Assembly: GCA_003614675.1 (NCBI GenBank)
Contig: ML002349.1
Span: forward strand, 1-39,619
Source of the DNA: Dimargaris cristalligena
Lineage: Eukaryota
Reading direction: 5' to 3'
DNA: 39,619 bases
In this document: positions 11,701 to 12,596 of the stretch, one piece after another
Numbering within the stretch: the stretch's first letter is position 1
Layout of the letters: every line of letters begins with the position of its first letter
Program-made: the position numbers and the translations under genes
The notes under the pieces: model-generated
The model's input: the letters and a program-made list of their open reading frames with translations, nothing else
What the model was told of the DNA's origin: nothing
The model's database searches: none

Positions 11701-12596
11701 GGGCGTCGGTCAGCGTCACAGATGTTCACAAGCCAGGGGTAGCGGGCCCCCGGGCCCTTGTCATCGTGATTGGAGCGAGTGGGAGTGGATGGAACCGAGA
11801 GGGCGGCTGTTTTGGACCGGGCGGCCGGTGACATAAAATTTTGTAGGTTGCGGCGGGGAGTGCCTGTGATGAGCTGCGGGGTACCCAGTGCGGGCAACGG
11901 CATGGAATCGGCCAGCGGAGAAGCCGGGGGCGAAACCGCCGAGCTGGGGAGCTGCGCCCGGTTACGGTTACCCCGGGCCGAGGCCCGCTTAGTGTGGGAA
12001 GTGGGACTGGCATCCAGCTCGACTAAACCATGGTCAGGATCAGAGTCGCTTTCCGACTCGGACAGCAAGGCCCGGCCTTTCCGCGGAGTAGCGCTAGGGG
12101 GCGCATAATCATCATCTTCGTCGCGGCCATTGGCGTCATCTTCGGAGTCGCTTGCTAATAGGGTAATAGCCGCGGCGCGTCGGGTGGGTCTACCGGATAG
12201 ACTGGCCATTTTGGGTCTTTTCGAGGACACCGAAGCCGACGAGCTTGTTTGCTCCTTGGGGGTGTTGGTGGTGATGGTGGCGGCGGGAGAGTGTACGGGG
12301 TATTTGCGTTTGGGAGTAGCGGGAATGTAGGCGGGTGTAGGCAGGGGCTCCGAGGAAGTAACCATGCCGGCTACGCTCCTGTCGGAGGAAGTGGTGGTAG
12401 TGGTGGCGGGCTCGGCGAGCGGGATCGGGCGCATGGCCGGAGTTTTGTTAAAGAATGAAAAGAGGGTCTTTTGGGGAGACGCAGTCCCGGCCTGCTTGGC
12501 CTGCAAGCGCTGGAGGGCCCGCTGGCGGTTTTGCTCAATGGTCTGCTTCTGCTTTAAGGAGAGGGGCAATGCCGGCGCCGAGGTGGGCTGATCCAT
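8721..12596 (-). CDS. MSH6: DNA mismatch repair protein MSH6 (MutS-alpha subunit), 1291 aa, intronless
   Basis: Probable start MDQPTS at 12596; the longer ORF-track start is non-ATG. PIP box QKTLFSFF, YNPRTLYIP, mismatch-binding KKGKFYELYE, Walker A TGPNAGGKST, STFMVELSET, Walker B ILDELGRGTST, STHYH, CPKSYG. Confidence 0.98.
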   Translation of the reverse strand: MDQPTSAPALPLSLKQKQTIEQNRQRALQRLQAKQAGTASPQKTLFSFFNKTPAMRPIPLAEPATTTTTSSDRSVAGMVTSSEPLPTPAYIPATPKRKYPVHSPAATITTNTPKEQTSSSASVSSKRPKMASLSGRPTRRAAAITLLASDSEDDANGRDEDDDYAPPSATPRKGRALLSESESDSDPDHGLVELDASPTSHTKRASARGNRNRAQLPSSAVSPPASPLADSMPLPALGTPQLITGTPRRNLQNFMSPAARSKTAALSVPSTPTRSNHDDKGPGARYPWLVNICDADRRPVSDPDYNPRTLYIPPAAWQKFTPFEKQFWDIKAKYFDTVVFFKKGKFYELYENDADIGHQQFDLKLTDRVNMRMVGVPETSFEFWAAQFVAKGYKVAKVDQVETALGKSMREKAGKIAKEDKIIRRELTSILTAGTLVDGSMLSHDMATYCLAIKERAANDYSAPYIGLCFVDTATGHFQLCGFQDDTNRTILETLLIQIQPKEMIYERGHLSKPTWRLLKNLLHTPVWNGLAPDKEFWDAATTETELLRSPSYFSPASSNSIPDSGNGPDAMAGDEPAELEAFRAWPAALRASRSDSTVMAAVGGLISYLRSLKLDRELVSLGNFEVYRPMCQAQSLLMDGQTMANLELFQTSEDNSLTYLASTHAQGEAGTLFQLLNRCTTPFGKRLFRQWMCHPLRNPRQINERLDMIDDLNAQAPIRDELRSQLARLPDLERLISRVHAGTCRVRDLLTVLRGFGDIQTLITDLRTQSAAFRSARFATLIQQCPDLSKPLAFFAQAFDHQVAEKESNIIPTPGVEPQFDSVNEQMAEIEAEFAEYLKEQRRALKCPKLEYRDLGKEVYQLEVPKAVKVPADFTKLSATKAVNRYWTPVTQKLVRRLNEILETRGTVFRDIERRMYERFDQHYSQWLRAVRTVSELDCLVGLALCAQSLGSPACRPEFVEPGPDGRSVLELTELRHPCVTETAGSDFIPNDTILGGDSPDTAQPSMILLTGPNAGGKSTLLRQTCLAVIMAQLGCYVPARRCRLSPVDRIFTRIGAHDDILRGQSTFMVELSETSKILREATPRSLVILDELGRGTSTFDGYAVAFAVLHHLATRVGCVGLFSTHYHALTREMAAHPQVRLMHMDCHVDPAHRDVTFLYKLVPGVCPKSYGMNVAGMAGIPRSVVDRAETVAEQFEASQKLNALTSQPMGAIPPLPSDQSSTKAVPAVAHLPMTCQADLKFLLQWADAFDANESSSSPTGCSNGLANSEQEMLNRFSALTIVQQWQTLH

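What the first reader, a model, noticed from the sequence alone, without database searches (positions are those of the whole stretch)
12450..12569. MSH6 carries a SMARCAL1/UNG2-type RPA32-binding helix in front of its PIP box
Seen: the N-terminus reads LPLSLKQKQTIEQNRQRALQRLQAKQ, then six residues later QKTLFSFF (PIP box). Known: the RPA32 C-terminal winged-helix binding motif of SMARCAL1 is [25 protein letters not shown], with related motifs in UNG2, XPA and TIPIN; UNG2 pairs this motif with a PIP box. Yeast and human MSH6 begin with a PIP box (plus PWWP in vertebrates), and I know of no such RPA motif described in them. Inference: this MutS-alpha may be recruited to forks by both RPA and PCNA, a possibly undescribed mode of coupling mismatch repair to replication.
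Basis: partly seen in the sequence, partly recalled or inferred. Interest (0 to 1): 0.75.

Follow-up and report, generated by a model that had tools for sequence, protein, structure and literature searches.

The report
RPA-docking helix before MSH6's PIP box
The mismatch-repair protein MSH6 of this fungus starts with a short helix that closely resembles the peptide other repair proteins use to dock on the single-strand-DNA-binding protein RPA, followed directly by its PCNA-binding box, so it may have a second, undescribed tether to replicating DNA.

Summary
Window 8721..12596 (-) is one open 1291-aa MSH6 gene, named Dimargaris cristalligena by its database twin. Residues 10-35 read LPLSLKQKQTIEQNRQRALQRLQAKQ. 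Six residues later, residues 42-49 are a canonical PIP box, QKTLFSFF.

The resemblance is not chance. A profile of this segment from five fungal MSH6 proteins, searched against 177,635 PDB sequences, ranks three carriers of the RPA32C-binding motif at the top: the SMARCAL1 peptide (E 7.9e-6), TIPIN (E 0.003) and yeast Rad14 (E 0.03).

The motif-plus-PIP module is present in all four Dimargaritales MSH6. It also occurs in Conidiobolus, Polychytrium, Chromosphaera and two unnamed sequences that group with choanoflagellates. That is 8 of 157 database MSH6, at five or more separate places on the tree. AlphaFold2 predicts a helix at residues 14-36.

The deposited gene model starts at Met255 and omits both motifs, but codon statistics, start context and conservation favour the upstream ATG.

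Binding to RPA32C was not tested, because the cognate RPA32 could not be reached. Seven literature searches found nothing that describes such a motif in MSH6.

Verdict: a well-supported new carrier of a known docking motif. The function is inferred.

The parts
8721..12596 (-). MSH6 gene, one open frame of 1291 codons plus stop. The deposited model removes an in-frame 42-nt GT..AG stretch at about 10875-10916 and starts at Met255.
   Evidence: ORF list and translation. Pfam MutS_I-V. Named MSH6 homologues. Comparison with the deposited model P0001.
12594..12596 (-). Proposed start codon (context CCACCATGG). It is the first ATG after an in-frame stop at 12705-12707, 36 codons upstream.
   Evidence: GC3 is 0.78 for codons 1-60 and 0.72 for the core, against 0.40-0.41 upstream. 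The codon log-likelihood is best in frame 0. No upstream ATG within 330 nt.
12492..12569 (-). Residues 10-35, LPLSLKQKQTIEQNRQRALQRLQAKQ: the SMARCAL1/TIPIN/Rad14/UNG2-type putative RPA32C-docking helix. Its core is I20-E-x-N23-R24-Q25-R26-A27-L28-x-R30-L31.
   Evidence: Profile against PDB. Reverse profile from known families. Predicted helix 14-36 with block-mean pLDDT 89-93. Invariant L12, Q16, N23, R24, A27, L31 in five MSH6.
12474..12491 (-). Residues 36-41, AGTASP: short variable linker between helix and PIP box.
   Evidence: The distance from the motif Asn to the PIP Gln is 16-29 residues in the nine carriers.
12450..12473 (-). Residues 42-49, QKTLFSFF: canonical PIP box (Q-x-x-L-x-x-F-F) for PCNA.
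   Evidence: Direct reading. A PIP-like box lies in the first 120 residues of 135 of 157 database MSH6. Predicted short helix 45-49.
11280..11636 (-). MutS domain I (residues 321-439), the end of the roughly 320-residue poorly conserved N-terminal region.
   Evidence: Alignment of the N-terminal regions of four Dimargaritales.

Best explanation
The gene encodes the MSH6 subunit of MutS-alpha. Its disordered N-terminal tether carries a two-part docking module.

- Part one is an amphipathic helix (about residues 12-35) of the SMARCAL1/TIPIN/UNG2/XPA-Rad14 type. [quoted passage not shown]
- Part two, six residues later, is a PIP box that binds PCNA.

Shown here: the sequence, its helix prediction, its conservation, and its profile-level identity with validated RPA32C motifs.

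Inferred: the helix docks on RPA32C. MutS-alpha in these lineages would then be held on RPA-coated single-stranded DNA as well as on PCNA, at primer-template junctions behind the fork or at excision gaps. The two contacts could be simultaneous, or a hand-off given the short linker. This would be analogous to UNG2, which uses PCNA and RPA contacts.
For: Profile against the PDB. The motif-only profile A2 places the SMARCAL1 peptide co-crystallised with RPA32C (4mqv_B, E 7.9e-6), TIPIN 194-217 (E 0.0032) and yeast Rad14 2-22 (E 0.027) as the top 3 of 177,635 PDB sequences.

Profile against the large library. The A1 profile searched against 1.84 billion representatives gave 173 hits at E<=0.001. 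I scanned 71 of the 150 listed with Pfam. The hits included:
- SNF2/HARP proteins (P0129, P0134, P0149, P0150, P0183)
- Swi3/TIPIN (P0153)
- XPA (P0164)
- UNG2-type N-termini (P0250 is a named uracil-DNA glycosylase)
- two more MSH6 (P0136, P0192)

Reverse profile. A profile from 12 such segments finds the window's motif (14.5 bits) and the same eight other MSH6 (9.4-34 bits). The other 149 of 158 full-length sequences score <=1.4 bits, and 2000 shuffles score <=4.3 bits.

Key residues. R24-Q25-R26 aligns with the SMARCAL1 RQK triplet. Passages of PMC11109976 report that mutating this triplet reduces RPA32 binding.

Structure and conservation. AlphaFold2 predicts a helix at 14-36 with block-mean pLDDT 89-93. 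Across four Dimargaritales the motif and the PIP box are conserved islands in an otherwise divergent N-terminal region.

Start codon. Codon statistics, context and relatives' starts support it.
Against: No binding test was possible, and the cognate RPA32 was never seen.

The window's own copy is the weakest of the four Dimargaritales copies against the known-family profile. It scores 14.5 bits against 26.6-34 and aligns only from Q16, because LSLKQKQT lacks the usual acidic pair and basic residue.

The single-sequence search gave only E about 1. A search with residues 1-110 found no homologue at E<=0.01.

The 12 training segments of the reverse profile were themselves found with the MSH6-derived profile, so that test is partly circular.

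Many of the strongest library hits are unnamed proteins with 3-7 tandem copies of the motif and no Pfam domain. The motif class may therefore be wider than RPA32C binders.

The motif is absent from 149 of 157 database MSH6, so it is not a general requirement of mismatch repair.

The deposited gene model starts at Met255 and lacks both motifs.

A six-residue linker may not allow both partners to bind at once (inference).
Confidence: 0.65

Rival explanations
1. The helix is a conserved basic amphipathic element with another job. It could be a nuclear import signal, a non-specific DNA contact of the MSH6 tether, or a dock for a different winged-helix protein (for example the RPA32 paralogue STN1). 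In that case it resembles RPA32C motifs only in general character.
For: The segment is rich in K, R and Q. The strongest library hits are multi-copy proteins of unknown function with no Pfam domain, so the motif's partners may be more than one. Binding was not tested.
Against: The conserved positions are L12, Q16, N23, R24, A27 and L31, not a K/R cluster. The top three PDB hits are all carriers of the RPA32C-binding motif and nothing else reaches E<0.1. The families recovered are SNF2/HARP, TIPIN, XPA and UNG, which are named as RPA32-WH or RPA-motif carriers in PMC8053108 and PMC4702912.
Confidence: 0.2
2. The motif is not part of the protein. Translation starts downstream, at Met255 as in the deposited model, and the upstream open frame is untranslated leader.
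For: The deposited model P0001 (1023 aa) begins at residue 255 of the window's frame.
Against: That model would also lack the PIP box, which 135 of 157 database MSH6 carry within their first 120 residues. Codons 1-60 have GC3 0.78 and the best codon likelihood in frame 0, like the core of the gene, whereas the upstream DNA has GC3 0.40-0.41 and no frame preference. The ATG has a CCACCATGG context and no ATG precedes it within 330 nt. The models of three related species start at the equivalent Met and conserve the motif and the PIP box.
Confidence: 0.05
3. Chance resemblance of a low-complexity, Q/K/R-rich stretch.
For: The single-sequence E-values against the PDB are about 1.
Against: Profile E is 7.9e-6 to SMARCAL1. 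The shuffle maximum is 4.3 bits against 14.5 observed. Scores are clearly bimodal among 158 MSH6: nine sequences score >=9.4 bits and the rest <=1.4. The motif always sits at the same place, directly before the PIP box, in nine proteins.
Confidence: 0.03

Closest known systems
SMARCAL1 N-terminal RPA32C-binding motif (peptide in PDB 4MQV)
   Same: Extreme N-terminal position and a single helix. Ten of 21 aligned residues are identical to the window (L, Q, I, E, N, R, Q, A, L, R), including N-R-Q-[KR]-A-L. It is the best PDB hit of the MSH6 profile (E 7.9e-6).
   Different: The carrier is an SNF2/HARP annealing helicase, not a MutS protein. No PIP box follows. Binding is measured for SMARCAL1 (passages of PMC11109976) and not for MSH6.
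UNG2 N-terminus (PIP box plus RPA32-WH motif)
   Same: Both docking motifs sit in one disordered N-terminal tail of a repair enzyme that scans newly made DNA. P0250, a named uracil-DNA glycosylase, has QKTLYSFF at residue 4 and the motif at 59-82. Dual PCNA and RPA2-WH use is described in PMC8053108 (passages).
   Different: The order is reversed: in MSH6 the helix comes first, then the PIP box. The spacing is much shorter, 6 residues against about 47.
TIPIN/Csm3 and XPA/Rad14 RPA32C motifs (ELM classes LIG_RPA_C_Vert and LIG_RPA_C_Fungi)
   Same: Same sequence class. TIPIN 194-217 and Rad14 2-22 are PDB hits 2 and 3. Swi3- and XPA_C-domain proteins were recovered by the profile. ELM lists a fungal version (table passage of PMC4702912).
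   Different: Different carriers and pathways. MSH6 is not among the listed carriers.
Canonical MSH6 N-terminal region of model organisms
   Same: Long disordered tether ahead of MutS domain I, with a PIP box near the N-terminus. Examples are Aspergillus, Mucor and Mortierella. The yeast and human cases are recalled, not from a call.
   Different: 149 of 157 database MSH6 lack the helix. The vertebrate PWWP domain (recalled) is absent here.

Membership tests
MSH6 (MutS-alpha large subunit) | MutS domains I-V in order | tested here: met
   Pfam MutS_I, II, III, IV and V, E 1.2e-32, 1.7e-11, 1e-42, 7e-14 and 6.3e-77.
MSH6 (MutS-alpha large subunit) | Orthology to named MSH6 rather than other MutS homologues, and a Phe-x-Glu mismatch-contact motif in domain I | tested here: met
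   The best 120 hits are MSH6-named or MSH6-like, with 45-64% identity. GKFYELYE is present in domain I. That Phe-x-Glu is the contact motif is recalled.
MSH6 (MutS-alpha large subunit) | Long N-terminal extension bearing a PIP box | tested here: met
   About 320 residues precede MutS_I. QKTLFSFF lies at 42-49.
PIP box (PCNA-interacting peptide) | Q-x-x-[LIMV]-x-x-[FYW]-[FYW] | tested here: met
   QKTLFSFF by direct reading. Consensus as quoted in PMC8053108. PCNA binding itself was not tested.
RPA32C (RPA2 winged-helix) binding motif, SMARCAL1/TIPIN/UNG2/XPA-Rad14 type | Sequence match to validated motifs | tested here: met
   top three PDB hits, E 7.9e-6, 0.0032 and 0.027; 14.5 bits with a profile from SNF2/HARP, TIPIN, XPA and UNG proteins, against <=4.3 bits for shuffles.
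RPA32C (RPA2 winged-helix) binding motif, SMARCAL1/TIPIN/UNG2/XPA-Rad14 type | Basic R-Q-K type triplet followed by A-L on the helix face | tested here: met
   R24-Q25-R26-A27-L28 aligns with SMARCAL1 R-Q-K-A-L. The role of RQK comes from passages of PMC11109976.
RPA32C (RPA2 winged-helix) binding motif, SMARCAL1/TIPIN/UNG2/XPA-Rad14 type | Single alpha-helix within a disordered region of a replication or repair protein | tested here: met
   AlphaFold2 on alignment A1 gives a helix at 14-36, with block-mean pLDDT 89 for residues 11-20, 93 for 21-30, and <=69 for all other blocks. This is a prediction only.
RPA32C (RPA2 winged-helix) binding motif, SMARCAL1/TIPIN/UNG2/XPA-Rad14 type | Conservation in orthologues | tested here: met
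   Present in 4 of 4 Dimargaritales MSH6 and in four further MSH6. Absent from 149 of 157 sampled.
RPA32C (RPA2 winged-helix) binding motif, SMARCAL1/TIPIN/UNG2/XPA-Rad14 type | Direct binding to the RPA32 C-terminal domain | not testable with these tools
   No genome is held for the window, and no tool returned an RPA32 sequence.

The most novel reading that the evidence does not exclude
The helix-plus-PIP module is an ancestral opisthokont feature of MutS-alpha. It tethered mismatch recognition to both RPA-coated template and PCNA, and with so short a linker it may have acted as a hand-off switch. It was then lost repeatedly, including in every model organism in which MSH6 has been studied. 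If so, lineages that keep it couple mismatch repair to replication by a route that yeast and human genetics could not have revealed.
Probability: 0.25. Interest if true: 0.7.

Novelty: new member of a known kind. Interest (0 to 1): 0.52.

Why it matters
How MutS-alpha finds newly replicated DNA is explained mainly by the MSH6 PIP box binding PCNA. Deleting that box gives only a mild defect in yeast (recalled), so other tethers have long been suspected.

An RPA32C dock on MSH6 would be a second physical link, to single-stranded template or excision gaps. It would extend the UNG2 logic of one PCNA and one RPA contact to mismatch repair.

The prediction is easy to test with peptides. It also gives a natural module that could be grafted onto yeast Msh6 to ask what RPA tethering does to mutation rates.

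Separately, it corrects a truncated public gene model.

Tried and rejected
- a homologue search with residues 1-110 alone gave 508 word-sharing candidates and none at E<=0.01. The region is too short and divergent for single-sequence search, so I used whole-protein searches and then inspected the N-termini.
- no whole genome is held for this window, so the organism's own RPA32, PCNA, SMARCAL1, Csm3 and Rad14 could not be examined. Long ORFs elsewhere in the window are not RPA32.
- Complex prediction was not run, because no RPA32 sequence came from any tool and a non-cognate stand-in was not judged worth the job.
- no RNA holder was listed for window 11600-13000, and read laying was therefore not used.
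- earlier findings of the scan had nothing to show.
- the Feldkamp 2014 paper (PMC4020579) is not held. Xie 2014 was seen only as a reference entry.
- the protein atlas gave no usable hit for residues 1-60.
- A broader named survey of all MSH6 N-termini was not possible. Each homologue search lists only the best 120 of several thousand hits. The 50%-identity representative library hides most MSH6 behind motif-less representatives (my inference, where the four training MSH6 from the database, P0002-P0004 and P0027, do not appear).
- I considered and rejected a 5' exon upstream: an in-frame stop lies 36 codons above the ATG, and GC3 falls to 0.40-0.41.

Full report
THE OBSERVATION

The minus strand of window 8721..12596 is one uninterrupted frame of 1291 codons. 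It begins MDQPTSAPALPLSLKQKQTIEQNRQRALQRLQAKQAGTASPQKTLFSFF. The finding's coordinates 12450-12569 correspond exactly to residues 10-49. The helix-like segment is residues 10-35, the spacer AGTASP is six residues, and QKTLFSFF (42-49) fits the PIP consensus Q-x-x-[LIMV]-x-x-aromatic-aromatic.

Pfam finds MutS domains I, II, III, IV and V from residue 321 onward. The best 120 database hits are MSH6 or MSH6-like proteins of early-diverging fungi and Aspergillus. The near-identical hit P0001 is named as a Dimargaris cristalligena protein on a contig of 39,619 bases, which is the window's length.

IS THE N-TERMINUS REAL?

The deposited model P0001 (1023 aa) starts at Met255 of the window's frame. 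It also removes residues 561-574, an in-frame 42-nt GT..AG stretch. As annotated it therefore lacks both the helix and the PIP box. Several lines of evidence speak for the upstream ATG at 12594-12596:

- An in-frame stop lies 36 codons upstream, with no ATG between.
- The context is CCACCATGG, and no ATG in any frame occurs within 330 nt upstream.
- Codons 1-60 have GC3 0.78. The core of the gene has 0.72, and the upstream DNA read in the same frame has 0.40-0.41.
- With the codon table of the gene's core, codons 1-60 score best in frame 0 (-3.89 against -4.58 and -4.31). The upstream 300 nt shows no frame preference.
- The gene models of Tieghemiomyces parasiticus (P0002), Dimargaris verticillata (P0003) and Dispira simplex (P0004) start 8-11 residues before the same motif.
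- A PIP-like box lies in the first 120 residues of 135 of 157 database MSH6, so a model without one is the odd one out.

No transcript evidence was obtained.

IS THE RESEMBLANCE MORE THAN CHANCE?

With the single window sequence (residues 1-53), TIPIN 194-220 and the SMARCAL1 peptide of entry 4MQV are among the top three of 177,635 PDB sequences, but only at E 0.8-1.2.

I aligned the motif segment of the window with those of P0002, P0003, P0004 and the chytrid Polychytrium aggregatum (P0027). L12, Q16, N23, R24, A27 and L31 are invariant (A2). The profile of that alignment gives:

| Rank | PDB hit | E-value |
|---|---|---|
| 1 | SMARCAL1 peptide (4mqv_B) | 7.9e-6 |
| 2 | TIPIN 194-217 | 0.0032 |
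| 3 | Yeast Rad14 2-22 | 0.027 |
| 4 | Next hit | 0.15 |

[quoted passage not shown] The SMARCAL1 peptide comes from the 4MQV co-crystal with RPA32C (PMC11387677). TIPIN and Rad14 are named as carriers in passages of PMC4702912 and in PMC8053108 and PMC11387677.

The longer profile A1 (motif plus PIP) was run against 1.84 billion representatives. It gave 173 proteins at E<=0.001. I scanned 71 of the 150 listed with Pfam, chosen as the top 52 plus those with a PIP box or a length above 1000 residues. The result:

- SNF2 and/or HARP domains: P0129, P0134, P0149, P0150, P0183
- Swi3/TIPIN: P0153
- XPA_C: P0164
- GRF zinc finger: P0166
- A cytidine-deaminase domain: P0177
- DNA polymerase delta OB-fold domain (Pfam DNA_pol_D_N): P0200
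- MutS domains: P0136 and P0192
- No family at E<=1e-5: most of the rest

Five hits have UNG2-style N-termini, with a PIP box at residue 4-12 and the motif at about 45-85. One of them, P0250, is named uracil-DNA glycosylase and matches UNG structures.

As a reverse test I built a profile from the best motif copy of 12 of these proteins (SNF2/HARP, TIPIN, XPA, UNG and UNG-like). I ran it over 158 full-length MSH6, that is the window plus 157. Nine scored 9.4-34 bits, with the window at 14.5. The other 149 scored <=1.4 bits. Two thousand shuffles of the window's first 320 residues reached at most 4.3 bits. This test is partly circular, because the 12 proteins were found with the MSH6-derived profile. 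The window's copy is also the weakest of the four Dimargaritales copies.

STRUCTURE AND KEY RESIDUES

AlphaFold2 on alignment A1 predicts a helix at residues 14-36 and a short helix at 45-49 within the PIP box. Block-mean pLDDT is 89 for residues 11-20, 93 for 21-30, and <=69 for every other block.

R24-Q25-R26-A27-L28 aligns with SMARCAL1 R-Q-K-A-L. Passages of PMC11109976 state that changing the RQK of SMARCAL1 and RAD52 to AAA reduces RPA32 binding, and that RPA32C binds one face of a helix.

DISTRIBUTION

Among the 157 database MSH6 (120, P0192, and 36 new ones), eight carry the motif by local profile search. The separation is clean: >=15.6 bits for carriers against <=3.6 bits for the rest. 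The carriers are:

- P0002, P0003 and P0004. With the window these make 4 of 4 Dimargaritales.
- P0027 (Polychytrium).
- P0282 (Conidiobolus coronatus), which has two motif copies. The first is followed by a PIP-like QKITSPFF and the second by QRSILQFF.
- P0192 (Chromosphaera perkinsii, an ichthyosporean).
- P0297 and P0301, which are unnamed.

In every carrier the motif sits at the extreme N-terminus, directly before the PIP box. The distance from the motif Asn to the PIP Gln is 16-29 residues.

I built a FastTree of the MutS core of 47 rows: the window plus 46 of the 157, which I picked at roughly one per genus. Most Aspergillus, Mortierella-group and Mucorales rows were left out. The tree places the carriers at five separate positions and needs at least five changes of state. 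P0297 and P0301 form a pair inside the choanoflagellate rows. Whether this pattern reflects one old origin with many losses or repeated gains cannot be decided from these data.

The sample is biased towards fungi. Several short unnamed proteins with the same helix-then-PIP arrangement (P0156, P0178, P0191, P0257, P0261) may be N-terminal exons of further MSH6, but this was not shown.

Within Dimargaritales the N-terminal region is otherwise poorly conserved. The conserved islands are the motif, the PIP box, a TPRRNL..FMS stretch at residues 246-256, and then domain I.

MECHANISM

Shown: an MSH6 with a conserved, predicted-helical segment of the RPA32C-motif class next to a canonical PIP box.

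Inferred: the helix docks on the RPA32 winged-helix domain, so that MutS-alpha is tethered to RPA-coated single-stranded DNA as well as to PCNA. This would parallel UNG2, for which dual PCNA and RPA2-WH use is described (PMC8053108, passages).

The order of the two motifs is reversed relative to UNG2, and the spacer is far shorter: 6 residues against about 47 in P0250. The two partners might therefore bind alternately rather than together. That last point is speculation.

I put the RPA32C-docking reading at 0.65. Rivals are another role for the helix (0.2), a downstream start (0.05) and chance (0.03).

WHAT IS KNOWN

[quoted passage not shown] It has no occurrence of MSH6. ELM has vertebrate, fungal, plant and insect classes of the motif, naming UNG2, XPA, TIPIN, SMARCAL1 and RAD14.

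Full-text searches gave the following:

- MSH6 + RPA32 + PIP box: one unrelated paper.
- MSH6 + RPA-binding motif: one unrelated paper.
- RPA32C + mismatch repair: three papers, none on this by title and abstract.
- Msh6 + N-terminal region + RPA + PCNA + winged-helix: four papers, none on this.
- Msh6 + Rfa2 + PCNA: eleven papers, ten listed, none on this by title and abstract.
- RPA2 + winged helix + short linear motif + MSH6: none.

Subscription-only papers are not covered. I saw only listings and passages, not whole texts.

VERDICT

The motif identity and its conservation are supported. Binding and its consequence for repair are inferred.

It is a new carrier of a known docking motif, and a new architecture for the MSH6 tether, found in non-model lineages. 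Interest is moderate (0.52). The finding is easily testable and informative for how mismatch repair is coupled to replication, but it is unproven and absent from the organisms in which the pathway is studied.

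Noticed in passing
window 8721..12596 (-), residues 1-254 and 561-574: The public gene model for this locus (P0001, 1023 aa) starts at Met255 and splices out an in-frame 42-nt GT..AG stretch (about 10875-10916). It therefore lacks the PIP box and the helix. The N-terminal truncation looks like an annotation error. Whether the 42-nt intron is real is open.
   Followed up: partly
window 11823..11861 (-), residues 246-258: A third conserved island in the otherwise divergent N-terminal region reads TPRRNLQNFMSPA, matched by TPRRNLTSFMSPA in Tieghemiomyces and TPRRNLSRFMSSS in Dispira. 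It has an L-x-x-F-M spacing reminiscent of a Q-less PIP-like peptide. Its function is unknown.
   Followed up: no
P0121-P0128, P0130, P0132, P0133 and others: The strongest library hits to the motif profile are unnamed proteins of about 200-600 residues with 3-7 tandem copies of the LSxEQxxRIExNRxxAL motif and no Pfam domain. They may be multivalent RPA32C binders or an undescribed family.
   Followed up: partly
P0200, P0177, P0166, P0135: The same motif, often in two copies, occurs in four other kinds of protein. One has a DNA polymerase delta OB-fold domain (Pfam DNA_pol_D_N) and also an N-terminal PIP-like box. One has a cytidine-deaminase domain, one a GRF zinc finger, and one an HHH_8 domain. 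I am not aware of these carriers being described (recall only, not searched).
   Followed up: no
P0282 (Conidiobolus coronatus MSH6) and fragment P0136, residues 1-95: These MSH6 carry the module twice: motif, then PIP-like QKITSPFF, then a second motif, then QRSILQFF.
   Followed up: partly
window 20683..22767 (-) and 27621..28460 (+): The other long open frames are a synoviolin/Hrd1-like RING E3 ligase (TPR_SYVN1_N, E 1e-100, plus RING-H2) and a glycoside hydrolase family 16 fragment. The 3.4 kb upstream of MSH6 (12600-16000) is AT-richer and has no long ORF.
   Followed up: no
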